9,320 nt of DNA from a virus (IMGVR_UViG_2651869781_000010); one strand, 5' to 3'. Shown: positions 1-9,248, counted from the first letter of the stretch. A program made the numbers and translations. The notes: generated by a model not told the origin, from the sequence alone.

Positions 1-774
1 TATGTCAAAATTATCAAAATCGAAAGAATTGATTTTCTCATTAAATTCATCAAATTCCGCTTGTTTGATGCTTAATAAATCAGTTAACACCTCTTCTTCA
101 TCACCAACAAAGTTACCTACCTTTTCAATTAACTCTGATAACTTTTGTTTGTTTTTTTCTATTTCGTCACTAAGCTCATAATTACGAATTAAATTAGCAC
201 TATCAAACCCAAGCAGGTGACCTATGTATGGTTTCCAAAAAATGTGTTTTCCAATAAAATCTTTTAATCTAAATACATCAGTATAATCATCTTGCCCACG
301 CAGTGAATAGCCTAAGGCAGTCCGATAATCCCAACGCTTAATTACACTTAAATCAAAAAGTGCATCCAAACACTCTTTCGACCTCTCAAAGGGTAGCTCT
401 GGATAGTCCCATTCACTAACTGCTAAATCAGTAAAGTCTTGATGCTTCTGCTCATGTTTTATAATACTTATTTTTGTAGGTGAGGCAACTGAGCGACGAA
501 TCGTTACATAACCCCCTGAGTTAAGAGCCACTTCTAGATAAAAAACAAAACTCTCAAAAACATTAAAATTTTTAAATAAAAAATGATTTTTATTTTTTTT
601 CTTAAGTAAACAAAAATCTATTAGATCACATAATTTACTTTTCCCTAAATTATGCGTATCTTTGCCTCTATTCTCAGAACGTCTTATTTCACCGATAACT
701 ACATTAAGCCCATCATGAAACTTTATAGGACTAAAAACATCTTTTTTATTAGAGTAAATTTTTGATAGTTTCAT
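1..774 (-). CDS. ABC/SMC-type ATPase, N-terminal 258 codons only (gene continues past window start); candidate ATPase subunit of a Lamassu/ABC-3C-like system
   Basis: Hand translation of the minus strand from ATG at 774..772 gives MKLSKIYSNKKDVFSPIKFHDGLNVVIGEIRRSENRGKDTHNLGKSKLCDLIDFCLL..., which resembles the N-terminus of OLD/ABC-family ATPases (LNVxIGE ... GKS ... LIDF). The frame stays open to position 1. The ATG overlaps the TGA of the upstream 79-aa ORF (ATGA). The P-loop is non-canonical, with about 11 extra residues between GE and GKS. This ORF is absent from the supplied track because it is truncated. Confidence 0.55.
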   Translation of the reverse strand, partial: MKLSKIYSNKKDVFSPIKFHDGLNVVIGEIRRSENRGKDTHNLGKSKLCDLIDFCLLKKKNKNHFLFKNFNVFESFVFYLEVALNSGGYVTIRRSVASPTKISIIKHEQKHQDFTDLAVSEWDYPELPFERSKECLDALFDLSVIKRWDYRTALGYSLRGQDDYTDVFRLKDFIGKHIFWKPYIGHLLGFDSANLIRNYELSDEIEKNKQKLSELIEKVGNFVGDEEEVLTDLLSIKQAEFDEFNEKINSFDFDNFDI

Positions 775-1010
775 TTTTTAACCCACTCAATCAAATCATT
801 TTTAGAATGATATTCGATCAGACCTAATAAATATAACAAACCTAGTGCGGGGTTGAATAAGGAAATAGCTCGCTCATCATATTTCTCAAGTGCATCATAA
901 AGCTCAGCATATTTACCAAATTTAGCTTTGCGTAGCTTTTTCATTAAGAATGCAGCTACCGCCAAGACGGTCAAATCTGGATGTGAATTCTTATTAGGAA
1001 GCAAGCTCAC
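771..1010 (-). CDS. small (79 aa) helical protein, candidate middle component (LmuC/ABC-3C MC-like) of the three-gene system
   Basis: ORF from the track with GTG start at 1010..1008, preceded by AGGAG (complement of 1016-1020) at about 6 nt. It overlaps the upstream gene by 17 nt and the downstream ATPase by 4 nt (ATGA), indicating translational coupling. No recognisable catalytic motif. The functional label rests on size and position only. Confidence 0.55.
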   Translation of the reverse strand: MSLLPNKNSHPDLTVLAVAAFLMKKLRKAKFGKYAELYDALEKYDERAISLFNPALGLLYLLGLIEYHSKNDLIEWVKK

Positions 1011-1941
1011 AGCTATCTCCTATATCACAATTATAATACATATAGTAAACCATTATTCTTGTTAATTTTTTATTTTTGTGCAGATCTGAATCCCTTGCAA
1101 TCAGTAGTTCAATCATCACCTCGAGAATTCGATCAAAATCATGATAATCCTTTTTATAAACACATATTTTAGCTGCAAGCTCATCTGCGCTTTCAATATA
1201 TTTTTTTTGATATGCGCTATTATCAGGATGAGATAAAAAATCCGAAATTTCAGTAATCTCAGCGATTTTTTTCTTAATAAGCTCAGCGTAACTGTTGCTT
1301 AAGTTATTTATTTTATTTTTCTGTAGAAAATCCACTCTAAAAATATGTGATGAAATAGTCTTATCTGTTAATTTACCAAGAGATGTATTTATACCTATAA
1401 TAACTTCTGCCAGTTGTTCTGGATCGATATTAATAAGCACATCGAATGGGTTAAGACCGGCCATTTCAGGCACATGTGGAAATACCTTAAAGTACCTCTC
1501 CATAGTTTCTATCCCAATCAACCCTATGTTGAATTTATCTAACCCGGTTTGGGTACTTATAAAATCCAGAATGTTTTTATTTGCCTCAGCAGGTAGTCGT
1601 CTATTGGCAAACAACAAATAATTATTAATTTTATCTTCATCAATTAATTTTTGTATTTTTGGTAATTCTACATTCAAAACTGAGGTTGTATTACCAAAGA
1701 AATCAGCATCAGAAAATTTTCTGTTATGATTTATAGTATGCTTAGCCTGTATTATGGTTAAACCATCCCATGGCCTGGCTTTACTAGGGTATGCTTCAGC
1801 TACACCATCGAATCTTGAGTCACGTCCCCCATCCCGCCCATCAGCAAAGGATTGAGTTCCTATGCCTAAAAGATCATAGCAAAGGTAAACAACTAGGGTT
1901 TCAAATTGAAATGCCGATAAACTGCAGTAGTCATATTTCAT
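994..1941 (-). CDS. 315-aa protein with N-terminal Mrr-like PD-(D/E)xK nuclease motif plus a C-terminal helical domain of about 200 aa; candidate effector (LmuA-like)
   Basis: ATG at 1941..1939. The N-terminal segment ...SFADGRDGGRDSRFDG...(about 20 aa)...LTIIQAKH carries a DGGxD ... QxK pattern typical of the Mrr catalytic/restriction-endonuclease fold. It is the first gene of three overlapping genes. AT-rich codon usage matches the two downstream genes. Confidence 0.65.
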   Translation of the reverse strand: MKYDYCSLSAFQFETLVVYLCYDLLGIGTQSFADGRDGGRDSRFDGVAEAYPSKARPWDGLTIIQAKHTINHNRKFSDADFFGNTTSVLNVELPKIQKLIDEDKINNYLLFANRRLPAEANKNILDFISTQTGLDKFNIGLIGIETMERYFKVFPHVPEMAGLNPFDVLINIDPEQLAEVIIGINTSLGKLTDKTISSHIFRVDFLQKNKINNLSNSYAELIKKKIAEITEISDFLSHPDNSAYQKKYIESADELAAKICVYKKDYHDFDRILEVMIELLIARDSDLHKNKKLTRIMVYYMYYNCDIGDSCELAS

Positions 1942-1992
1942 GACTGTACCTTATTAAAAGTCAGCAGAATTGGAAAAAACATTAAGTTTGAA

Positions 1993-2022
1993 ATCATATA
2001 ATTGCCACTGAAATAATTTCAA
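1993..2022 (-). promoter_or_regulatory. candidate sigma70 promoter for the cargo operon
   Basis: On the minus strand: TTGAAA (2022..2017), a 16-18 nt spacer, then TATATG/TATGAT (2000..1993), about 55 nt upstream of the ATG at 1941. Found by eye in AT-rich DNA, so a chance match is plausible. Confidence 0.3.
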
Positions 2023-2300
2023 CAATCAACTTAATACTCAAAAATTTCAATGTGTTACTTTACCGCACAATGACGCAATAAACTCTGCAAAAAATCTATA
2101 AACGCATTTTTTTTGACAACTCGCACAGCCCCGCACGCCTGCCCGCTTCGCTTAACAGACTGGTTTTCATGCACCTCATAAATCGTCTCAGAAGCCACCA
2201 CACAAGGGCTTTCTCGTCAAAAATGGTGCATAAGGCTCATGCGTTTTCATGCGCCATAGACATGCACTCATGCGCTCTCAGGCCAGCCAGGGAAAAGGTG

Positions 2301-2348: not shown

Positions 2349-2621
2349 TCAGACAGGAATCTGCTGACGGCTTGACAGTTTTGACGCGGAGCCATAGCGA
2401 TTGAGCGTTTGCTGTTGTTTTACCGGGGCTTGTGATTTGTCTGGTTCCTGTTCATTGCGCCGGGGTTTCATGATTATCTTATCCACACTCTCCAGTGCCG
2501 TAAATGTGCAGGAACATTCCAGATTCTGGCACTGATACCACGAGCGTTTAACTGACGGAGCTTCATAGGCTGCTGTTCTGGCGTGTGCAACTGTACCGCA
2601 TTCCGGACATTTAAGTGCCAT
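2349..2621 (-). CDS. ogr: Ogr/Delta-family zinc-finger late-gene transcriptional activator (90 aa from the ATG)
   Basis: MALKCPECGTVAHARTAAYEAPSVKRSWYQCQNLECSCTFTALESV... carries the exact C-x2-C-x22-C-x4-C spacing and the AHxRT / YxQCxN / TFxxxESV motifs of P2 Ogr and P4 Delta. The track ORF begins at a GTG at 2630; the ATG at 2621..2619 with AGGAG 8 nt upstream is preferred. Single-domain, not duplicated as in P4 Delta. Confidence 0.85.
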   Translation of the reverse strand: MALKCPECGTVAHARTAAYEAPSVKRSWYQCQNLECSCTFTALESVDKIIMKPRRNEQEPDKSQAPVKQQQTLNRYGSASKLSSRQQIPV

Positions 2622-2626
2622 TAATA

Positions 2627-3178
2627 TCACTCCTGTATATCGTTAATGTCATTCAGGCGTTGCTGAAAACGCAGATGTTGTGCCGGGGTGTAAGAGCCCT
2701 GGCAATCACGAATCATCCCGGGGTCTGGCATCAAACCGGATTCATCCAGGATCTCACGATAATCCCCGGCAATTTCAGGCGGTGTTATTGCCAGCTGGCG
2801 AACCAGAGCACTGCGTAATATACGGGACGCAACGTCAACCCCTCCGCGCCCCTTCAGGAACGGAGCCAGTGCAGATGTCAGGGCTGCCCCATTCGCCTGC
2901 ATAAAATTGCTGAGAGCAGCTTCTGTGCAGGCCTCCATCAATAAATGCTGCGAGTAAATGCATTCGCGAGCAGCACAGTTAATTTGCCATTTCAGCACAT
3001 CCAGACGTTCCCGCAGTAATTCGAGCTGTCGGGCATAATCTGTTGGTTTTTCTGTGGCAGCGAGGAGAGATGCTATCTGTTGTTCAACGGCTTTTCGGGT
3101 CTCACTATGTCCGGCCCACAGAATACGGGCATTCCGAAAACTGGTAAGTGCCTGGTCAGGTGTGCCTCGGGCCGTCAT
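2627..3178 (-). CDS. psu: Psu-like protein (polarity suppression / capsid decoration), 183 aa
   Basis: All-helical 183-aa protein. Segments KWQINCAARECI, FMQANGAALTSALAPFL and YTPAQHLRF resemble P4 Psu as I remember it (KWQVNQAAGRYI, FMQQHGTALAAALAPEL, FTPAQNMIF). Length is close to P4 Psu (190 aa). The ATG overlaps the stop of the upstream gene (ATGA). The comparison is from memory, not from an alignment. Confidence 0.55.
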   Translation of the reverse strand: MTARGTPDQALTSFRNARILWAGHSETRKAVEQQIASLLAATEKPTDYARQLELLRERLDVLKWQINCAARECIYSQHLLMEACTEAALSNFMQANGAALTSALAPFLKGRGGVDVASRILRSALVRQLAITPPEIAGDYREILDESGLMPDPGMIRDCQGSYTPAQHLRFQQRLNDINDIQE

Positions 3179-3918
3179 ACAGCTTTCTCCTTCTCAGCAA
3201 GTTCCTGACGAACCTTTATTTTATGCATAGCTGCCGGAGAGAGTTGATTACTGAAATCCAGACGCGCCGCATAATCCGGGGCAACTCCCGCCAGTTTAAA
3301 CACCGGGTCCTGTTCAGGCATCGCATCGTTAGCCAGAGCCGGTCTGGTGATATGTTTATGAATAAAGTCTTTCAGCACTGTGTCCGGGTCATTAACTGAA
3401 TTCACCACACCCACAACGGCACTGGCTTCCCGGCCCATTGTGGATTTAAGCAGGCTCAGCGTCTGAATAAGCGCTTTTCCATGCGACTGCATAAAATCTT
3501 CCCAGATTTGTTTTGCGCGAATATCCACAAGAATGTTATGCGCGTGGATATACTTTCCGGCTAATTCCGCAGCTTTCTGCGGCAAAAGTGCATTTTCGCT
3601 TTCCTGAGCCGCCAGCAGCTCATCAAAATCCTCAAGCGTTTCTCGTCCCAGCGCAATTTCCGTGCGCAGTTTTTTCATTTCCTTTGAGACCACGCCCTGA
3701 CTTTCACGAAACAGCGTGCGCCACTCCTCATTCAGTGTGTTCGTCGTGGCTTCCATTTCAGCGCGACGCTGGCGGATTGTCGCAATATTATCCGCTGCAG
3801 CTTTCTGCTGACGACGTGCTTCAAGCCATGCGTTTCTGGCTGTGTTCATGGTTTCCAGTGCCCGCTGCGTTACAGCCGGAAAAGTGGAAAGGTTGTTATT
3901 CACTGCGGTGTTGTTCAT
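3175..3918 (-). CDS. 247-aa coiled-coil protein, putative Sid-like capsid size-determination scaffold (assigned by size and position only)
   Basis: ATG at 3918..3916 with AGGAG 6 nt upstream. Helical, charged, Ala/Glu/Arg-rich sequence. It is the first gene of the late operon directly behind the Ogr-type promoter, and P4 Sid is 244 aa. No sequence motif was recognised. Confidence 0.4.
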   Translation of the reverse strand: MNNTAVNNNLSTFPAVTQRALETMNTARNAWLEARRQQKAAADNIATIRQRRAEMEATTNTLNEEWRTLFRESQGVVSKEMKKLRTEIALGRETLEDFDELLAAQESENALLPQKAAELAGKYIHAHNILVDIRAKQIWEDFMQSHGKALIQTLSLLKSTMGREASAVVGVVNSVNDPDTVLKDFIHKHITRPALANDAMPEQDPVFKLAGVAPDYAARLDFSNQLSPAAMHKIKVRQELAEKEKAV

Positions 3919-4096: not shown

Positions 4097-4292
4097 GGTG
4101 GAACAGGTGAAACATGTGTTACTGCTTTGTTTTATAAAGCATTTATATACACTGCACCGGTGGAACATCGCGGGTAACAAGGTGGAACAGCGGATTGGCT
4201 GGCGTTACATCTGTTCCACCTCACTATTTCAGAAGGTGGAACAGGTTCAGCCCTGTAAAATACGGTTGTTCCACCTGTTTCACCTGTTACCC
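4097..4292. repeat. iteron cluster, candidate ori/crr-like replication element bound by the primase
   Basis: GGTGGAACA at 4097-4105, 4159-4167, 4181-4189 and 4235-4243. Variant GGTGAAACA at 4106-4114. Inverse copies TGTTCCACC at 4212-4220 and 4267-4275, and TGTTTCACC at 4276-4284. Close to the P4 alpha-binding octamer TGTTCACC. Located in the 400-bp non-coding gap immediately 3' of the primase gene. Confidence 0.7.
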
Positions 4293-4318: not shown

Positions 4319-6991
4319 TTAACCCGGCACCTCGCTGTTGAAGACATAGAGCCTGCGGGGATTCATCTCTGGCGGGCGAATGGTTGTCTGGAGTTTGCCA
4401 TCAGTGGAGGGCAGCAGGTATCCACGATCTACGCACAGACGCGCCACCTTGCGCGGGTCAAATCCCCTGCAGATTTCTTTCCAGCCGGACGGCATGACAT
4501 AGAACGTAGTGACAGCTTCCGTGCCCTGCGCGGTACTGCCTTTCTCCACCCTGCGCCAGCCCACCATATTGCCGGGGCGGTTGCGCTCGTCATACCAGTC
4601 TGCAAAGCGGCTGTACTGATTCGCGGTAAAGAAACTGCGAACCTGCTCCAGTGCGGCGATATCTTCCTGATTGGCGGTGTGCCCGCGATCTTTCAGCCAT
4701 GCGTTCAGGCAGACGCGGGTTGCCCGCAGTGCTTCACCCTCAGGCCAGCCGGTGATACCCAGACGGGTTGCCAGTTCACCTGCCATCGCCACCAGTGCAA
4801 AGCGGTTCACAGCCCGGCCCACCTGATTGCCTGCATCTTTAGGAGTCAGGGCGGCAGCATATTCCTTCATCAGCGATTTTGCCTGTGCCGTTAGTCCGTT
4901 AAGATCAGCGGTCAGTGCTTTCAGCCACTCCCGGAACGGCGAACCGTAGTAGCAGGACGTGGCCCATTCAAGATGCTCTGCCAGAGCCTTGCCGCTGTCG
5001 AAGCCGTGCAGCTCCTCAAAAACGCCAAACTTCCCGGAATCGCTTGGGATCTGGATCATCCTGACTTCCATCCCGGCAAAAGTACGCTCACCGGCCTTTG
5101 CCGCATGTTCGGTCAGAGACAACTCGCCAGTTGAAAAGAACAACAGGCGCCACTGCTTACGGGTACGCAGCTCACCGTCCGTACCGGCACGGCCCTTGCC
5201 CTGACCGTTTGCCAGCATGTAGGCGATATTGCCTGCCTCGCGTCCGTCAACTTCCCGGATCTCATCAAGCATCATGGCGGCATCGTTGCGGCGGCTGGCG
5301 CATCCCTCCAGCGCGTTGCCGGTGGCCCGCCATGTCTGCCAGTAGTCAGGCCCGCCGCAGACGGAGGTTGCCGCTTTCATGGTGGTGGTCTTACCGTCTG
5401 TCGATTCCCCTTTTAGGTGGTAGCCGCCGCCGTCCATACCAACCAGCCGTAACAGTGGTGCAGCAAAGGCCAGGCTGACAGCAAATGCCACGCGGGAGTT
5501 GCCGGTACAGTAGCGGGATACATGCTCCCGCCATTCCTCTGTTGTGCCCGACACGCGGAAATCACGCCCCTGCACGGAAGTGGTCTGGAGAATGACACCC
5601 TCTGCACCTTCACCGCTGACCTCATCCTGCAGGACGTAAACCTGACCATGCCAGCCAGTACGACTGACGCAGGTCACGCGGCGTTCCGGTTTACACAGTG
5701 AGATATATTCCATCAGGCGTGCGCGTGCCTCACCGGTGGTGCTGATATAAGACAGCCCGTTAACCAGCAGTACCCGGCGCAGTTCCTCACCACTGCCGCT
5801 CAGCATTTCCATCGGCATCGCCCAGCGGCGACACTCACCCCACGTATCTTCCCATTCCAGCAGTCGTCCGAAGTTACCGCCATCGGCATCGCAGGTGATT
5901 GCCGTCACGCGCAGCGGGCTGCATATTTTGACGTTCTGGATCTCCGTCTCACCGTTGCGCTGTACCTGCTTTTCATACCAGAGATATTCCTGGGTAAGAC
6001 GGAACCCGTGCGGCAGTTGCGTGCGGCCTTCCCCGCACAGTACCAGACCGTTGCGAAAGGCTTCACGGGCACGGGTAATACCGTGCTCCCGATGAAAGTC
6101 ATTCCAGTCAGCCTTAATCTCTCCTGGTGGCAGGGTCATCCAGCCGCCAACAGCTTTTGCCGCCCGTTCAGCAAAGGCTCTGCCGGGATTCTCACCCCCG
6201 TCCTGAAAATCGTTATCACCGGCGATGATAATTTTTACCTCAGGCCAGCGTGCCCGCAGCGACTGCGCCACATTGGGCAGGTTGCCCGCAGATATGGCAG
6301 CCACTACGCATCCGGCAGTGAGCTGGCTTACCGTCAGCGCCGTAGCGTAACCTTCGGTAATCACCACCTGTACCGGTGGTTCAGACGGTAACGGGCTGAG
6401 CGACACAAACGCGCCTTTCATCGTGCTGCCGGGCAGTATGCTTTTTTCACCCGTCGGGGCGATAAGCTGTGCACCGGTCACGGCTCCGGTGTTGGTCGTG
6501 AGTGGTAACAGCAGGGAACCGGTAGGAAAATCCTTACCGCTGATATGCTGCACGCTTCCGGTCAGAGAGGCCGGGTATCCGGCGAACCCTTTTCCTGTCA
6601 GATAGGCGCTTTCTCCCGTGTGGCTCTCTTTCATCAGCGCCGCCACGGTAAGACCCATGTCGCGTTTAGGGGCTTTTTGTCTGGCAGGCTTAACAGGCAG
6701 TTCCTGCACATCCGGCACATTAAGCACCTGCGCCACCTCCTGCGCAGCCTTTCTGACGCTGTAACCGGTTACGAGCTTAACCAGATCCAGACCGTCACCA
6801 TTGCCACACTGGCTGCAGATCCACGTCCCGCGCCCGTCAAGGTCATCAAGGCGAAAACGATCCTTGCCCCCACATTTCGGGCAGGGACCGTGCCTGCCGT
6901 TTTCAGGTACATCAATACGCAGCATCTGCAGAATAACGGGCCATTTCCCCCGTGCGGCGGCTGAAATCTGCGTAACCGTCTGTATTGTCAT
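4319..6991 (-). CDS. P4 alpha-like primase/helicase (N-terminal zinc ribbon, TOPRIM primase domain, SF3/D5-type P-loop NTPase), 890 aa
   Basis: CPKCGG...CSQCG zinc ribbon near the N-terminus. VVITEGYATALT and IIAGDNDFQDGGENPG are TOPRIM acidic motifs. Walker A GESTDGKTT lies mid-protein. The ATG at 6991 overlaps the upstream stop (ATGA) and has a GAGGGGG Shine-Dalgarno sequence. The iterons lie just downstream. Confidence 0.9.
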   Translation of the reverse strand: MTIQTVTQISAAARGKWPVILQMLRIDVPENGRHGPCPKCGGKDRFRLDDLDGRGTWICSQCGNGDGLDLVKLVTGYSVRKAAQEVAQVLNVPDVQELPVKPARQKAPKRDMGLTVAALMKESHTGESAYLTGKGFAGYPASLTGSVQHISGKDFPTGSLLLPLTTNTGAVTGAQLIAPTGEKSILPGSTMKGAFVSLSPLPSEPPVQVVITEGYATALTVSQLTAGCVVAAISAGNLPNVAQSLRARWPEVKIIIAGDNDFQDGGENPGRAFAERAAKAVGGWMTLPPGEIKADWNDFHREHGITRAREAFRNGLVLCGEGRTQLPHGFRLTQEYLWYEKQVQRNGETEIQNVKICSPLRVTAITCDADGGNFGRLLEWEDTWGECRRWAMPMEMLSGSGEELRRVLLVNGLSYISTTGEARARLMEYISLCKPERRVTCVSRTGWHGQVYVLQDEVSGEGAEGVILQTTSVQGRDFRVSGTTEEWREHVSRYCTGNSRVAFAVSLAFAAPLLRLVGMDGGGYHLKGESTDGKTTTMKAATSVCGGPDYWQTWRATGNALEGCASRRNDAAMMLDEIREVDGREAGNIAYMLANGQGKGRAGTDGELRTRKQWRLLFFSTGELSLTEHAAKAGERTFAGMEVRMIQIPSDSGKFGVFEELHGFDSGKALAEHLEWATSCYYGSPFREWLKALTADLNGLTAQAKSLMKEYAAALTPKDAGNQVGRAVNRFALVAMAGELATRLGITGWPEGEALRATRVCLNAWLKDRGHTANQEDIAALEQVRSFFTANQYSRFADWYDERNRPGNMVGWRRVEKGSTAQGTEAVTTFYVMPSGWKEICRGFDPRKVARLCVDRGYLLPSTDGKLQTTIRPPEMNPRRLYVFNSEVPG

Positions 6992-7371
6992 ACTTCCCCC
7001 TCATACAACGTCACACCGGTACTGCAGAAGTCATCAAAGGCCGCCGGAAGCGTGCGGTACATCTCCGCCATCACTTCACAGCCGCGCGCGGTCAGTACCG
7101 GCGGCGCGGTCAGCAGTGATGGCTCCAGCATGTCAGTCAGCAGTGCCAGCGCGGCAGCGGCGCCCTGCACTTCGCCGTACTCGTTAATCAGTACGCACTC
7201 GATATGCAGCGCAATGGCCATTTCAATACGCTCCACCGTCAGGCTGTGCGGACCATACTGATCACTGCCAGTTTCGTTCAGCATTTTCTGCCGCCATGCT
7301 GAAGCAATAGCCCGCCGGTAAAGCGCGGTGGTCATTTCTACCGGGAAAATGGAAACCTGCGGCTGGTTCAT
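6988..7371 (-). CDS. hypothetical protein (127 aa), primase-operon gene
   Basis: ORF with ATG at 7371..7369, AAGGAGG upstream, and 4-nt ATGA overlaps with both neighbours. GC-rich codon usage matches the primase. No motif recognised. Confidence 0.6.
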   Translation of the reverse strand: MNQPQVSIFPVEMTTALYRRAIASAWRQKMLNETGSDQYGPHSLTVERIEMAIALHIECVLINEYGEVQGAAAALALLTDMLEPSLLTAPPVLTARGCEVMAEMYRTLPAAFDDFCSTGVTLYEGEV

Positions 7372-7652
7372 CTGGCACCTCCTTCAATCAGTGCGCAGCT
7401 GTGTGCAATATCCGTCAAATCTGCCAGCAGGTACTCCATCAGCGCGGCGACACCATGCGCACAGCCAGCGTCCAGTGCTCCGGCCTGAGACGGGTATTCA
7501 GAAAAGAGAAGCTGGAGCATGTCGCAGGCATTTTTTGCGCGGGTCAGCTTTCCGAAACTGTCCTCTGACAACCCATAGGCAAAAGCACCGGTATTGTGTT
7601 TTTCAGGCAAAGTGTGGCCCTGAGCACCGTTGTGCCCGTTTGAAATATTCAT
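7368..7652 (-). CDS. hypothetical protein (94 aa), primase-operon gene (position and size reminiscent of P4 epsilon, unverified)
   Basis: ATG at 7652..7650 with GGAG 9 nt upstream. The stop overlaps the next ATG. No motif recognised. Confidence 0.55.
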   Translation of the reverse strand: MNISNGHNGAQGHTLPEKHNTGAFAYGLSEDSFGKLTRAKNACDMLQLLFSEYPSQAGALDAGCAHGVAALMEYLLADLTDIAHSCALIEGGAR

Positions 7653-7683
7653 CGTGGATTACTCCGTTTTCAGCGGTATTTTG

Positions 7684-8043
7684 TCAGAGAAACTTTGAAT
7701 AGTGACCGTCGTCAGGCTCAGCAGAACGCCATATGCTACGCTCCCGCCAGCGGATAAATAGCACAGACGGATGCAGTGTCAGCGGGCCGGAACCACTACC
7801 GCCTGCAGGAGCTGGTGCAGGCTTAAAGAGCGGTACATCAAACAGGCGCGTATACCGCTGTTCAAACCATGCCAGAGGGCAGGAAGAAAGCTGGTTGTCG
7901 CTGTCATGACGTATCAGCACTTCACAGCTGAATTCAGGATTAACCAGCGCCACAGAGGGCGAGGCTTTAATTAATCGGATAATCGTGACCGTCCAGCCAC
8001 GTTCATGCTGCCAGCGTTCGCCGGGTTGCGGATAATTACGCAT
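7684..8043 (-). CDS. hypothetical protein (119 aa from the ATG), primase-operon gene
   Basis: The track ORF starts at a TTG at 8073. The ATG at 8043..8041 (MRNYPQPGERW...) with GGAGG 5-6 nt upstream is preferred. Contains a Pro/Gly-rich linker (KPAPAPAGGSGSGP). Confidence 0.55.
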   Translation of the reverse strand: MRNYPQPGERWQHERGWTVTIIRLIKASPSVALVNPEFSCEVLIRHDSDNQLSSCPLAWFEQRYTRLFDVPLFKPAPAPAGGSGSGPLTLHPSVLFIRWRERSIWRSAEPDDGHYSKFL

Positions 8044-8212
8044 GTTCACCTCCGCAGGGAATGCGCCCGGCAAAGCTCAGTACATAGTCCGGGGCAAGTC
8101 TGCGCCGCGCTGATCGCTCGTTATCTGCGGTGATCCTTAACATCACCGGACGGGCATTACGTTGACTGCGGTTGATCGCCGCAAATAACCAGGTACACTT
8201 CTCTTTAGCCAT
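8036..8212 (-). CDS. small hypothetical protein (58 aa), first ORF of the primase operon
   Basis: ATG at 8212..8210 with GAGG 9 nt upstream. Translates as MAKEKCTWLFAAINRSQRNARPVMLRITADNERSARRRLAPDYVLSFAGRIPCGGEHA. Its TAA (8038..8036) overlaps the ATG of the next gene by 8 nt. It is the 3' part of the 244-aa track ORF 8036..8770, whose upstream portion looks spurious. Confidence 0.35.
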   Translation of the reverse strand: MAKEKCTWLFAAINRSQRNARPVMLRITADNERSARRRLAPDYVLSFAGRIPCGGEHA

Positions 8213-8287
8213 CTTCGTTGCCTCATATAGCGGTTTGGTCAGAAGCCCGGTTAGTGTTGCTGCACTGTCGGGCTTCGCACTCACAAG

Positions 8288-8380
8288 GTGAATCGCACCT
8301 TCACTTTTAAAGCTACCCTTAAGTGAATCGCACTTCAAGTCTTTTATTATCATTTTTTTTGCGTATACTGAATCGCACCT
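8288..8380. promoter_or_regulatory. divergent control region: three direct repeats (candidate operators) plus the -10 element of the plus-strand regulator gene
   Basis: GTGAATCGCACCT (8288-8300), GTGAATCGCACTT (8323-8335) and CTGAATCGCACCT (8368-8380). The third overlaps a TATACT -10 (8364-8369) located 30 nt upstream of the ATG at 8400, which has AAGGAG at 8386-8391. The region separates the primase operon (minus) from the RHH-like gene (plus). Confidence 0.5.
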
Positions 8381-8399
8381 AACGCAAGGAGATCCAGTA

Positions 8400-8585
8400 A
8401 TGGCAACGGGTTCAACTAACAACAAGTCGCAGCAACTTAATGCTCGTTTCCCACATGATGTAGTTGCAGAATTAGAAAGCAACCTTGAAGATGGGGAAAC
8501 GAAAGCGCAATTTATTGTTACCGCTGTAAAAGGCGAGATTAAACGCCGACAGCGCAGGAAAAATAAGCTAGAGCAAGTAAGCTGA
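8400..8585 (+). CDS. small DNA-binding regulator, probably ribbon-helix-helix type (61 aa)
   Basis: ATG at 8400 with AAGGAG 8 nt upstream. The segment QLNARFPHDVVAELESNLEDGETKAQFIVTAVKGEI has a strand-helix-helix pattern typical of Arc/CopG-like proteins, followed by a basic tail (KRRQRRKNK). A terminator follows. Confidence 0.55.
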   Translation: MATGSTNNKSQQLNARFPHDVVAELESNLEDGETKAQFIVTAVKGEIKRRQRRKNKLEQVS

Positions 8586-8648
8586 ATAGAGAAGCGAATA
8601 GACGTTCTCTCAGATTCCATGCTAATTTCAGTAAGCGACAATATTTTT

Positions 8649-8680
8649 AAGCCCACAAACTCATTTTGTCGGGCTTTTTT
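8649..8680 (+). terminator. Rho-independent terminator after the RHH-like gene
   Basis: Stem AAGCCCACA (8649-8657) / TGTcGGGCTT (8667-8676) with a one-base bulge and a 9-nt loop, followed by a T-run (8675-8680). It sits between the convergent RHH-like and AlpA-like genes. Confidence 0.5.
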
Positions 8681-8681
8681 A

Positions 8682-8912
8682 TTAGTGATTTTCATGCCGT
8701 TCACCACGAGAGGCATATATTTGCTCTTGAATCCAGTGATCGACTTCGCTTTCAACAAATGAAATTGCACGAGTTCCTATTTTCACCGGGCGGGGAAATG
8801 TATTGTTTGAAAGCTGTTTGTAAAGCCATGCCTTGCTACGCTGAACGCGTCTTAACACCTCTTTTGCTGAGATAAGGGTCTGATTCTCTGAAAGGTTGTT
8901 TGCATATTCCAT
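8682..8912 (-). CDS. alpA: AlpA/Vis-family phage transcriptional regulator / excisionase-like protein (76 aa from the ATG)
   Basis: ISAKEVLRRVQRSKAWLYKQLSNNTFPRPVKIGTRAISFVESEVDHWIQEQI matches the AlpA/Vis helix-turn-helix signature (...S.STIYR....G.FP.PIKLG.R...W...E...WI). The track ORF begins at a GTG at 8957. The ATG at 8912..8910 with GGAG 8 nt upstream is preferred. Confidence 0.8.
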   Translation of the reverse strand: MEYANNLSENQTLISAKEVLRRVQRSKAWLYKQLSNNTFPRPVKIGTRAISFVESEVDHWIQEQIYASRGERHENH

Positions 8913-9193
8913 CTTGTTACTCCGTGTTCTGCTTAAGTTCACGGTGACTTTAAACACTGAAAAAAAGTCATTCTAGTGATAATGGAATCTATTAAGACAA
9001 ACACTGATTCTATTGAAATGTGATGATTTCCACTGAAAAAAAAGAAACGATATTCATATGAAAGAACACAAGAAGAAGGAAATGCACAAATATAAAATCA
9101 ATAAAATTCATATAGATAGGATGAAAAATCAAAAAAATCATACGTCAAAAGGTATTATTACGTATTATCGATTCATATTACTCAGGAATTACC

Positions 9194-9248
9194 ACAGTAT
9201 TACACTGTATTACCCCCTATAGCCCCTTAGAGCCTCTTGTAGCCCCTT
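9194..9248. repeat. two sets of tandem decamer-scale direct repeats in the AT-rich region upstream of alpA
   Basis: ACAGTATTAC (9194-9203) directly followed by ACTGTATTAC (9204-9213). Then TAGCCCCTT (9220-9228), a degenerate copy AGAGCCTCTT (9229-9238) and TAGCCCCTT (9240-9248) with roughly 10-bp periodicity. Confidence 0.4.

What the first reader, a model, noticed from the sequence alone, without database searches (positions are those of the whole stretch)
6988..8212. Four small translationally coupled ORFs of unknown function ahead of the primase: candidate helper-manipulation genes
The 58-, 119-, 94- and 127-aa ORFs are linked to each other and to the primase by 4- to 8-nt overlaps or a 31-nt gap, and each has a good Shine-Dalgarno sequence. 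None has a motif I recognise. In P4 the corresponding positions hold kil, epsilon (anti-repressor of the helper P2 C repressor) and orf151. These are therefore the most likely place for proteins that derepress or redirect a helper phage or affect the host, and they may have diverged to target a different helper.
Basis: inference. Interest (0 to 1): 0.45.

Follow-up and report, generated by a model that had tools for sequence, protein, structure and literature searches.

The report
P4-type satellite early operon genes
The four small genes are real and conserved, and they are diverged copies of the phage-satellite P4 genes kil, orf151, epsilon and cnr, so this is an ordinary satellite early operon and not a new system.

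Summary
Four minus-strand ORFs (58, 119, 94 and 127 aa) run into a primase-helicase gene with 8-nt, 4-nt and 4-nt overlaps and one 31-nt gap, and each has a Shine-Dalgarno match. All four are under purifying selection (dN/dS 0.03-0.5). They are syntenic in 11 species-representative Enterobacterales genomes and occur in 333 of 5426 complete E. coli genomes.

- ORF58 is an Icd-like protein (NF033153), 54% identical to P4 Kil.
- ORF127 is DUF5375, 40% identical to P4 ORF106 (Cnr). Cnr regulates replication copy number and does not manipulate the helper.
- ORF119 is a shortened homologue of P4 ORF151. The evidence is profile comparison plus a bridging 151-aa orthologue in the same slot.
- ORF94 is a remote relative of P4 epsilon, the anti-repressor of the helper repressor. 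Support is moderate. It is also among the fastest-evolving genes in the block.

Compared with P4, the epsilon-like and orf151-like genes are in swapped order. The lineage lacks P4's CI/C4 immunity RNA and instead has swappable operator cassettes with a small divergent ORF. Its replicase carries a DUF927 helicase half.

Verdict: new member of a known kind, modest interest.

The parts
8036..8212 (-). ORF58: Icd-like protein, homologue of P4 Kil. First gene of the early operon.
   Evidence: NF033153 phage_ICD_like, E 5.5e-24, 84 bits against a cut-off of 25. It is 54% identical (E 7e-15) to the last 65 residues of P4's old 'cI' ORF, which is Kil. dN/dS 0.03-0.18.
7684..8043 (-). ORF119: shortened homologue of P4 ORF151. 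It has an N-terminal Tudor/SH3-like beta domain (about residues 1-66) and a disordered tail with a conserved C-terminal motif.
7368..7652 (-). ORF94: remote relative of P4 epsilon (helper derepression protein, PF25738). Predicted disordered N-terminus followed by a two-helix hairpin.
   Evidence: hhalign A6 against the epsilon family A5: probability 71%, P 3.6e-5, score 31.4 over 79 columns; 200 column shuffles gave mean 11.4, sd 2.4 and maximum 24.1, and the reversed alignment scored 10.9. In reciprocal HMM searches every member of each family scored positive. PF25738 was the only Pfam family hit by more than one member (4 of 28, best E 0.0076). P0204 against P4 epsilon: E 0.001. AF2 pLDDT 72.7. 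dN/dS up to 0.5.
6988..7371 (-). ORF127: DUF5375 protein, homologue of P4 ORF106 (Cnr), translationally coupled to the primase gene.
   Evidence: PF17345, E 3e-13, 50 bits against a cut-off of 30. 40% identical to P4 ORF106, E 9e-17. P4 ORF106 is itself DUF5375. phrog_5991 is shared by both.
4319..6991 (-). Primase-helicase, the last gene of the coupled chain. It combines a P4 alpha-like N-terminal primase with a DUF927 helicase half of the SaPI Rep / SCCmec Cch type.
   Evidence: Zn_Ribbon_Prim, Toprim_3 and DUF927. 38% identical to P4 alpha over residues 5-316 only. Residues 415-643 match PDB 8tch and 5dgk. No similarity to the C-terminal 260 aa of alpha.
8213..8776 (-). In-frame open extension upstream of ORF58 (188 codons without a stop), comparable to P4 eta, which contains kil.
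   Evidence: 0 stops, against 16 and 15 in the other two frames. P is about 5e-5 to 1.5e-4 under shuffles that keep the opposite-strand protein. The same or an abutting long ORF is present in 10 of 13 loci. No Pfam domain.
8242..8276 (-). Conserved hairpin in the 5' leader of the operon.
   Evidence: RNAalifold on 11 loci: 11 pairs, of which 8 show compensatory changes on both sides.
8289..8380 (.). Three copies of TGAATCGCAC(C/T)T. Two sit in palindromes (AAGTGcgattCACTT). They overlap a candidate promoter on the minus strand: -35 TTGAAG at 8338-8333 and -10 TAGCTT at 8315-8310.
   Evidence: The promoter was read by eye and was not picked up by the consensus scan. Related loci carry other operator pairs on TTGACA-type promoters at the same place.
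8400..8585 (+). Divergent 61-aa ORF with an AAGGAG Shine-Dalgarno sequence. It is a candidate small repressor, possibly ribbon-helix-helix.
   Evidence: Orthologues at 59-97% identity in L007, L008 and L011. Other cassettes carry other 57-64 aa divergent ORFs. Domain evidence is weak only: the HicB-family hit (E 3.5e-4) is for one variant, and the window protein has no significant hit.
8682..8912 (-). AlpA-family regulator upstream of the cassette. The likely start is the ATG at 8912; the ORF listing gives a GTG at 8957.
   Evidence: PF05930, E 2e-11. Sequence.
4097..4284 (.). Eight GGTG(G/A)AACA iterons just downstream of the primase gene. This is a likely replicase-binding region, in the position of P4's crr.
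   Evidence: 8 matches against 0.17 expected. P4's crr type I repeats read GGTGAACA / TGTTCACC.

Best explanation
This is the early ('left') operon of a P4-like phage satellite. Its four small genes are diverged orthologues of P4 kil, orf151, epsilon and cnr, and they are translated as a coupled chain that ends in the primase-helicase.

Proposed working:
- A promoter overlapped by palindromic operator repeats is kept off, probably by the small protein encoded divergently next to it (inferred).
- When the operon is on, ORF58 (Kil/Icd-like) is made first. By homology it is a host-toxic, cell-division-inhibiting peptide.
- ORF58 also forms the end of a longer in-frame ORF that starts next to alpA. 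As with P4 eta, translation of that longer ORF may carry upstream transcription through the control region (inferred).
- ORF119 is the ORF151 counterpart. It has a small Tudor/SH3-like domain and its function is unknown.
- ORF94 is the epsilon-type protein. It most likely binds and inactivates the immunity repressor of the resident P2-like helper (inferred from remote homology).
- ORF127 (Cnr-like) limits satellite replication by acting on the replicase made just after it (inferred from homology and coupling).

Gene identities are shown here with differing strength. All functions are inferred.
For: Gene reality: conserved synteny in 11 species-level genomes plus metagenomic relatives, and dN/dS 0.03-0.5.

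Satellite context: AlpA, a Sid-like protein, Psu and Delta are in the window. In E. coli 504838 the element also has an integrase next to tRNA-Arg.

Kil/Icd-like. An Icd-like protein was the likely death effector in a prophage module that includes a primase, and P4 kil is described as lethal (bioRxiv 10.1101/2023.04.06.535777).

ORF151 homology.

Epsilon relationship. The two proteins are nearly the same size (94 vs 95 aa) and sit in the same operon. Epsilon activates P2 prophage (PMC12239096; PMC8628076).

Cnr. The cnr family occurs in 90% of P4-like elements, and cnr controls plasmid copy number (PMC8628076). P4-like iterons lie downstream of the replicase gene.

Coupling.

Control region.
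Against: - ORF94 itself does not reach any threshold against PF25738. There is no hit at E up to 10, and direct BLASTP against P4 epsilon finds nothing.
- The epsilon link rests on profile comparison at 71% probability and on a few divergent family members. The fold is a plain helical hairpin, and the fold search was uninformative.
- The gene order differs from P4.
- The replicase lacks P4 alpha's C-terminal Pox_D5 origin-binding domain. From memory of Terzano 1994 and Ziegelin 1997, that domain is where Cnr acts, so the Cnr mechanism may not carry over unchanged.
- One related element (L011) has no Cnr gene at all.
- No helper phage or helper repressor was identified, and no function was tested.
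Confidence: 0.6

Rival explanations
1. ORF94 is not an epsilon-type anti-repressor. It is an unrelated small helical protein, for example a replication or regulatory accessory, and its resemblance to epsilon comes from two short helical proteins with similar composition. This satellite would then not derepress its helper and would wait for helper induction or infection.
For: There is no direct Pfam or BLAST match for the window protein. No PHROG cross-hit. The fold search was uninformative. hhalign probability is only 27% with the close-family profile and 71% with the wider one. ORF94 occupies a different slot from epsilon in P4.
Against: The score is 8 sd above the column-shuffle null, and the reversed control scored 10.9 against 31.4. 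In reciprocal HMM searches all 28 and all 22 members score positive. The aligned motifs are the invariant columns of both families and occur in the same order: LSxE/DxF/YxKLxRA, then D-L, then G-L, then P....YLxxD(L/I). PF25738 is the only Pfam family hit by several members.
Confidence: 0.28
2. The block works mainly as a host-killing, abortive-infection module. ORF58 (Icd-like) is the effector and the other small proteins, with the primase, act as sensors or regulators that release it when another phage infects.
For: Silas et al. reported that an Icd-like protein in a six-gene prophage module including a primase was the likely effector of programmed cell death. They also reported that a cloned P4 prophage caused death, possibly through kil. 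ORF58 is the most conserved of the four small genes.
Against: None of the four proteins, nor the primase, matches PADLOC models. Each gene has a P4 counterpart with a known or assigned role in the satellite life cycle. The window's defence cargo lies elsewhere, in the low-GC region at 1-2300. The two roles are not mutually exclusive.
Confidence: 0.1
3. One or more of the ORFs are not functional genes but spacer sequence that happens to be open.
For: ORF119 and ORF94 have no curated family. The second half of ORF119 is predicted to be disordered.
Against: dN/dS is 0.1-0.5 for every ORF across comparisons with dS up to 1-2. Start codons, overlaps and lengths are conserved in 11 genomes and in relatives at 36-40% identity.
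Confidence: 0.02

Closest known systems
Satellite phage P4 left (early) operon: kil/eta, epsilon, orf151, cnr, alpha (NC_001609)
   Same: All four small genes have a P4 counterpart. There is a coupled chain ending in a primase whose N-terminal 320 aa are 38% identical to alpha. A kil-type ORF is nested in a longer in-frame ORF. GGTGAACA-like iterons follow the replicase gene. AlpA/Vis lies upstream and sid, psu and delta lie downstream.
   Different: The epsilon-like and orf151-like genes are in swapped order. Epsilon is only remotely related. ORF151 is shortened by 32 aa. There is no CI/C4 RNA, isrK-like or a1b1 element, and there are operator repeats with a divergent small ORF in their place. 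There is no Ash domain (PF10554). The helicase half is DUF927, not D5_N/DUF5906/Pox_D5. Delta has a single domain (93 aa vs 166 aa).
Phage P1 immI operon: c4 RNA, icd, ant
   Same: A small Icd-type peptide is the first translated gene of an operon that goes on to encode an anti-repressor. ORF58 matches the Icd-like model.
   Different: There is no C4 antisense RNA here. The downstream anti-repressor candidate is epsilon-like, not P1 Ant. The comparison with P1 rests on my own knowledge of P1, not on a test.
P4-like 'Type C#01' elements of Moura de Sousa and Rocha (PMC8628076, PMC10085698)
   Same: psu, delta, sid and alpA are present, while the markers those authors used for 'epsilon' (PF10554) and alpha (PF03288) are absent. 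[quoted passage not shown]
   Different: Those surveys describe the class as having lost epsilon and alpha. Here a remote epsilon relative and an alpha-like primase fused to another helicase are present, so the functions appear to have been replaced or to have diverged, not to have been lost.
SaPI / PICI primase-replicase modules
   Same: The helicase half is a DUF927 helicase related to SaPI Rep (8tch) and SCCmec Cch (5dgk), and the regulator is AlpA-type.
   Different: The hijacking genes are of the P4 type (sid, psu, delta). They are not the terS or capsid-morphogenesis genes of PICIs.

Membership tests
Icd-like / P4 Kil (NF033153) | Score above the curated cut-off of the family model | tested here: met
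   84 bits against a cut-off of 25, E 5.5e-24, covering 47 of 48 model positions.
Icd-like / P4 Kil (NF033153) | Sequence similarity to P4 Kil itself (the 65-aa C-terminal part of eta) | tested here: met
   54% identity over 46 aa, E 7e-15. The Kil boundaries were read from the P4 frame. The 65-aa size is recalled from Forti et al. 1999.
Icd-like / P4 Kil (NF033153) | First translated gene downstream of the immunity/control region, nested in a longer in-frame ORF | tested here: met
   The position is shown. The frame is open for 188 further codons (P about 1e-4).
Icd-like / P4 Kil (NF033153) | Kills the cell or blocks division when overexpressed | not testable with these tools
   Needs expression in E. 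coli.
DUF5375 / P4 Cnr (PF17345) | Score above Pfam's gathering threshold and similarity to P4 ORF106 | tested here: met
   50 bits against 30. 40% identity, E 9e-17.
DUF5375 / P4 Cnr (PF17345) | Lies immediately upstream of the replicase gene | tested here: met
   4-nt ATGA overlap with the primase start. The same holds in 10 of 11 related genomes.
DUF5375 / P4 Cnr (PF17345) | The partner domain is present: the C-terminal origin-binding (Pox_D5) domain of alpha | tested here: not met
   No PF03288 hit in the window primase, whereas P4 alpha has one. hhalign of the C-terminal 260 aa scored 11.8 against a null of 14.0 +/- 2.9. That Cnr acts on this domain is from memory.
DUF5375 / P4 Cnr (PF17345) | Lowers replication or copy number | not testable with these tools
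   Needs copy-number measurement of a deletion mutant.
P4 epsilon / Derepression protein (PF25738) | Score above Pfam's gathering threshold | tested here: not met
   The window protein has no hit at E up to 10. Four of 28 family members hit weakly, best E 0.0076.
P4 epsilon / Derepression protein (PF25738) | Profile-level homology to the epsilon family | tested here: inconclusive
   hhalign probability 71%, P 3.6e-5, z about 8 against shuffles. Reciprocal HMM scores are all positive. This is supportive but below the usual 90-95% probability standard.
P4 epsilon / Derepression protein (PF25738) | About 95 aa, encoded in the early operon between kil and the replicase | tested here: met
   94 aa, third gene of the chain. 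The slot differs from P4, coming after the orf151 homologue and not before it.
P4 epsilon / Derepression protein (PF25738) | Binds the helper's immunity repressor and derepresses the prophage | not testable with these tools
   Needs an induction assay and an interaction test.
P4 ORF151 family (phrog_10748) | Detectable homology to P4 ORF151 | tested here: met
   hhalign 85.7%, P 5.5e-6, full length. The orthologue in the same slot of L014 is 40% identical to ORF151 (E 3e-41) and matches ORF119 at E 4e-6. Direct PHROG assignment differs: phrog_30862 vs phrog_10748.
P4-like satellite (core set of PMC8628076) | psu, delta, sid and alpA present and co-localised | tested here: met
   PF07455 twice, PF04606 and PF05930. 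The integrase lies outside the window but is present in L001.
P4-like satellite (core set of PMC8628076) | The 'epsilon' marker PF10554 and the alpha marker PF03288 are present | tested here: not met
   Neither is found, which places the element in their Type C#01. In P4, PF10554 hits the old cI/eta ORF and not epsilon.
P4/P1 RNA immunity (C4 RNA RF01695, c4-a1b1, isrK) | C4-type RNA upstream of the kil/icd gene | tested here: not met
   P4 scores 74.9 bits. There is nothing in the window at E up to 10 and nothing in 12 related loci.

The most novel reading that the evidence does not exclude
ORF94 is an epsilon-class anti-repressor whose specificity has shifted to a helper repressor other than P2 C. 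It belongs to a P4-like lineage that has also replaced the CI-RNA immunity with interchangeable protein-operator cassettes and has replaced alpha's helicase and origin-binding half with a SaPI-type helicase. If so, the ORF94/epsilon pair would be a natural system for mapping how satellites choose their helpers. Separately, ORF119/ORF151 could be an RNA-polymerase-binding Tudor-like factor.
Probability: 0.25. Interest if true: 0.55.

Novelty: new member of a known kind. Interest (0 to 1): 0.3.

Why it matters
Genome surveys class this abundant group of P4-like elements as lacking epsilon and alpha. About 6% of complete E. coli genomes carry this block. The evidence here suggests the functions are still present in diverged or substituted form. 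That changes how such elements should be annotated and whether they should be regarded as autonomous hijackers.

The work assigns two 'hypothetical proteins' to P4 gene families. It also points to ORF94 as the gene to test for helper specificity.

The value is mainly in annotation and in generating hypotheses. No new kind of mechanism is implied.

Tried and rejected
- **Family searches.** PHROGs gave no cross-hits between the ORF94 and epsilon families or between the ORF119 and ORF151 families. PADLOC gave no hit for any of the four proteins or the primase. PDB sequence search found nothing for ORF94 or ORF127.
- **Whole-library profile search with the ORF94 family.** Only 23 hits in 1.84 billion representatives, and none from the epsilon family.
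- **Other comparisons.** ORF119 against the epsilon family found nothing. The weak Rfam symR match at 8207-8279 (+) is far below threshold (24 vs 61 bits) and is the reverse complement of the leader hairpin, so I rejected it as a family assignment.
- **Promoter and terminator scan.** It returned no more sites than in shuffles and missed the promoter I read by eye.
- **Tool limits.** The search for related loci with the wide alignment A6 failed because no stretch was conserved enough. A search of the phage collection with the block's DNA found nothing. The classic P4 papers (Forti 1999, Liu 1997) are not held, so what I take from them is from memory.
- **Not attempted.** Co-occurrence of ORF94 alleles with helper repressor types, because the tools list at most 60 records per search.

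Full report
**Observation.** The four ORFs lie on the minus strand at 8036-8212 (58 aa), 7684-8043 (119 aa), 7368-7652 (94 aa) and 6988-7371 (127 aa). An 890-aa primase-helicase gene follows at 4319-6991. The junctions are an 8-nt overlap (ATGCGTAA), a 31-nt gap and two 4-nt ATGA overlaps. Every start has a Shine-Dalgarno match 2-9 nt upstream: GAGG, GGAGGTGA, GGAG, AAGGAGGTG and GAGG. The description is therefore accurate.

**Are they real genes?** A megablast of the block finds it in 333 of 5426 complete E. coli genomes at 93-99% identity. There RefSeq already annotates 'Icd-like protein', two 'hypothetical proteins' and 'DUF5375 family protein' ahead of a 'TOPRIM and DUF927 domain-containing protein'. 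In E. coli 504838 the element sits next to tRNA-Arg and has an integrase, an HTH regulator, a Sid-like gene, psu and a disrupted delta.

A scan of species-representative genomes with the ORF94 family returned 11 loci from Shigella, Pantoea, Enterobacter, Citrobacter and Pseudocitrobacter. All have the same order, and one (L011) lacks the 127-aa gene. Nei-Gojobori estimates against the window give these dN/dS values:
- 0.03-0.18 for ORF58
- 0.14-0.34 for ORF119
- 0.11-0.50 for ORF94
- 0.11-0.24 for ORF127 in the diverged comparisons
- 0.04-0.05 for the primase

All four are therefore protein-coding and constrained. They evolve much faster than the replicase. In the Pantoea loci the primase is 90% identical while ORF94 is about 63% and ORF119 is 54-62%.

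**Context.** The window is a P4-like satellite. It carries an AlpA regulator, a Sid-like protein and a Psu (both in the Psu family) and an Ogr/Delta zinc-finger protein. A low-GC cargo region holds an ABC-3C CTD12 protein. I fetched P4 itself (NC_001609) for gene-by-gene comparison.

**ORF58.** It scores 84 bits (cut-off 25) against NCBIfam NF033153, 'host cell division inhibitor Icd-like'. It is 54% identical to the C-terminal part of P4's old 'cI' ORF. In the P4 frame the last Met-initiated segment is 65 aa. That matches the 65-aa Kil that I recall from Forti et al. 1999 (J Bacteriol 181:5225, not held here). A bioRxiv study calls P4 kil lethal and identifies an Icd-like protein as the likely death effector of a prophage module that includes a primase (10.1101/2023.04.06.535777).

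**ORF127.** It passes Pfam's threshold for DUF5375 and is 40% identical (E 9e-17) to P4 ORF106, which is itself DUF5375. ORF106 is cnr, the copy-number regulator. The cnr family is present in 90% of P4-like elements between 'epsilon' and alpha (PMC8628076). So the gene nearest the primase is a replication regulator and not a helper-manipulation gene.

One caveat applies. The replicase shares only the N-terminal primase with alpha (38% over about 320 aa). Its helicase half is DUF927, related to SaPI Rep (8tch) and SCCmec Cch (5dgk). Its C-terminal 260 aa show no similarity to alpha's. As I recall, Cnr acts on alpha's C-terminal origin-binding domain. On the other hand, eight GGTG(G/A)AACA iterons (0.17 expected) lie just downstream of the primase gene. 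They resemble P4's type I repeat GGTGAACA in crr.

**ORF119.** Direct BLASTP to P4 ORF151 is weak (E 6e-4, N-terminus). The family alignment (A4) aligns to ORF151 over its full length with hhalign probability 85.7% and P 5.5e-6. The score is 38.3, against 12.0 +/- 2.5 (maximum 21) for 200 shuffles. The N-terminal M..(Y/F)PQPGE motif and the C-terminal W-RE...EPD...Y..(F/Y)L end are both shared.

A divergent member of the same lineage settles the matter. In L014 the order is 59 aa, 151 aa, 94 aa, DUF5375 and a DUF927 primase. Its second gene is 40% identical to P4 ORF151 (E 3e-41) and matches ORF119 at E 4e-6.

**ORF94.** It has no Pfam or NCBIfam hit and no BLASTP match to P4 epsilon. The family is tiny and confined to Enterobacterales. 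It has 69 clusters at 90% identity and only 23 representatives among 1.84 billion. P4 epsilon is Pfam PF25738, 'Derepression'.

Several lines link the two families:
- Profile-profile comparison of the ORF94 family with an epsilon family alignment (A5) gave P 7e-4 with the close-family profile.
- With the wider profile A6 it gave probability 71%, P 3.6e-5 and score 31.4 over 79 columns. Column shuffles of A5 gave 11.4 +/- 2.4 (maximum 24.1) and the reversed alignment gave 10.9.
- The aligned positions are the invariant columns of both families, in the same order: LSxE/DxF/YxKLxRA, then D-L, then G-L, then P....YLxxD(L/I).
- In reciprocal HMM searches all 28 ORF94-family members and all 22 epsilon-family members scored positive.
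- PF25738 is the only Pfam family hit by more than one ORF94-family member (4 of 28, best E 0.0076).
- The divergent member P0204 matches P4 epsilon by BLASTP at E 0.001.

The AF2 model is a disordered N-terminus plus a two-helix hairpin (pLDDT 72.7), and fold search adds nothing. I rate homology to epsilon at about 0.65-0.7 and anti-repressor function somewhat lower. Epsilon activates P2 prophage (PMC12239096). From memory of Liu et al. 1998, it does so by binding the P2 C repressor.

**Differences from P4.** The order here is kil, orf151-like, epsilon-like, cnr. In P4 it is kil, epsilon, orf151, cnr. P4 carries a C4-type CI RNA (74.9 bits), an isrK-like element and a1b1 targets upstream of kil. 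The window has none of these at E up to 10, and neither do 12 related loci.

Homology among related loci begins only 80-100 nt upstream of the ORF58 start. Further upstream there are at least four alternative cassettes. Each has a promoter, TTGACA-type in most, two palindromic operator copies and a divergent 57-64 aa ORF. In the window these are three TGAATCGCAC(C/T)T repeats and the 61-aa ORF at 8400-8585. The ribbon-helix-helix assignment is only weakly supported.

A leader hairpin at 8242-8276 (minus strand) is conserved, with compensatory changes in 8 of 11 pairs. The ORF58 frame stays open for 188 codons upstream, across the cassette and into the end of alpA. It has 0 stops, against 16 and 15 in the other frames, and P is about 1e-4. 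Similar long ORFs that are fused to the Icd-like gene or end just before it occur in 10 of 13 loci. None has a recognisable domain. This recalls P4's nested eta/kil genes, in which translation of eta prevents Rho-dependent termination (from memory). It is untested here.

**Relation to the literature.** Surveys of P4-like satellites used PF10554 (Ash) as the 'epsilon' marker and PF03288 as the alpha marker (PMC8628076; PMC10085698). In P4, PF10554 hits the old cI/eta ORF and not epsilon. [quoted passage not shown] I found no paper that describes the ORF94 or ORF119 families or their link to epsilon and ORF151.

**Verdict.** The block is the early operon of a diverged P4-like satellite with recognisable orthologues of kil, orf151, epsilon (remote) and cnr. 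It is a new member of a known kind and interest is modest. The useful lead is ORF94, a fast-evolving candidate for helper specificity.

Noticed in passing
window 8289-8585 (operators 8289-8380; ORF 8400-8585 on the + strand): A divergent 61-aa ORF with a strong Shine-Dalgarno sequence faces the operon across three TGAATCGCAC(C/T)T repeats. Related satellites carry at least four different cassettes at this spot, each with its own operator palindromes and its own 57-64 aa divergent ORF, joined to the conserved operon 80-100 nt before the Icd-like start. It looks like modular swapping of a protein-based immunity switch.
   Followed up: partly
window 7950-9000 and loci L001, L003-L013: P4's C4-type CI RNA, isrK-like element and a1b1 targets are all absent from this lineage, although P4 itself scores well above threshold.
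   Followed up: yes
window 8242-8276 (-): A conserved hairpin in the 5' leader of the operon, with compensatory changes in 8 of 11 pairs across 11 loci, followed by a conserved CTGACCAA. Its function is unknown. The weak Rfam symR match on the opposite strand is this hairpin.
   Followed up: partly
window 8213-8776 (-): The ORF58 frame is open for 188 further codons upstream, antisense to the 61-aa ORF and overlapping the 3' end of alpA (P about 1e-4). This resembles P4's eta, which contains kil. Ten of 13 loci have a fused or abutting long ORF. No domain was found.
   Followed up: partly
window 4097-4284: Eight GGTG(G/A)AACA iterons in both orientations lie just downstream of the primase gene (0.17 expected). 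They are one base longer than P4's GGTGAACA type I repeat. This is a likely origin or crr-equivalent.
   Followed up: partly
window 4319-6991 (-): The replicase is a chimera relative to P4 alpha. It has the same zinc-ribbon and Toprim primase (38% identity), but its helicase half is DUF927, related to SaPI Rep (8tch) and SCCmec Cch (5dgk), and it has no Pox_D5 origin-binding domain.
   Followed up: yes
P4 locus L002 8168-8584 compared with 7888-8175: Pfam PF10554 (Phage_ASH), used in satellite surveys as the 'epsilon' marker, hits P4's old cI/eta ORF. The real epsilon is PF25738. Elements scored as 'lacking epsilon' may only lack the Ash domain.
   Followed up: partly
window 2349-3918 (-): The late-gene order is sid-like (247 aa, Psu family), psu (183 aa), delta (93 aa, single Ogr/Delta domain). 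P4 has sid, delta (166 aa), psu.
   Followed up: no
window 1-2300: A low-GC region (29-34%) carries a 315-aa protein with an ABC-3C CTD12 domain (E 4.6e-51) and a weak PADLOC PDC-S73 hit, overlapping a 79-aa ORF. This is probably the satellite's defence hotspot cargo.
   Followed up: no
window 9193-9248: AT-rich region upstream of alpA with 10-bp-spaced repeats: CCCCTTAGAGCC-type in three copies and CAC(A/T)GTATTA in two. They could be protein-binding sites, such as integrase arm sites or an upstream promoter region.
   Followed up: no
L011 6273-6297: One related Citrobacter element lacks the Cnr-like gene entirely, so the ORF94 homologue abuts the primase. Its primase match is also split into two segments (residues 1-503 and 503-890), which suggests a frameshift.
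   Followed up: no
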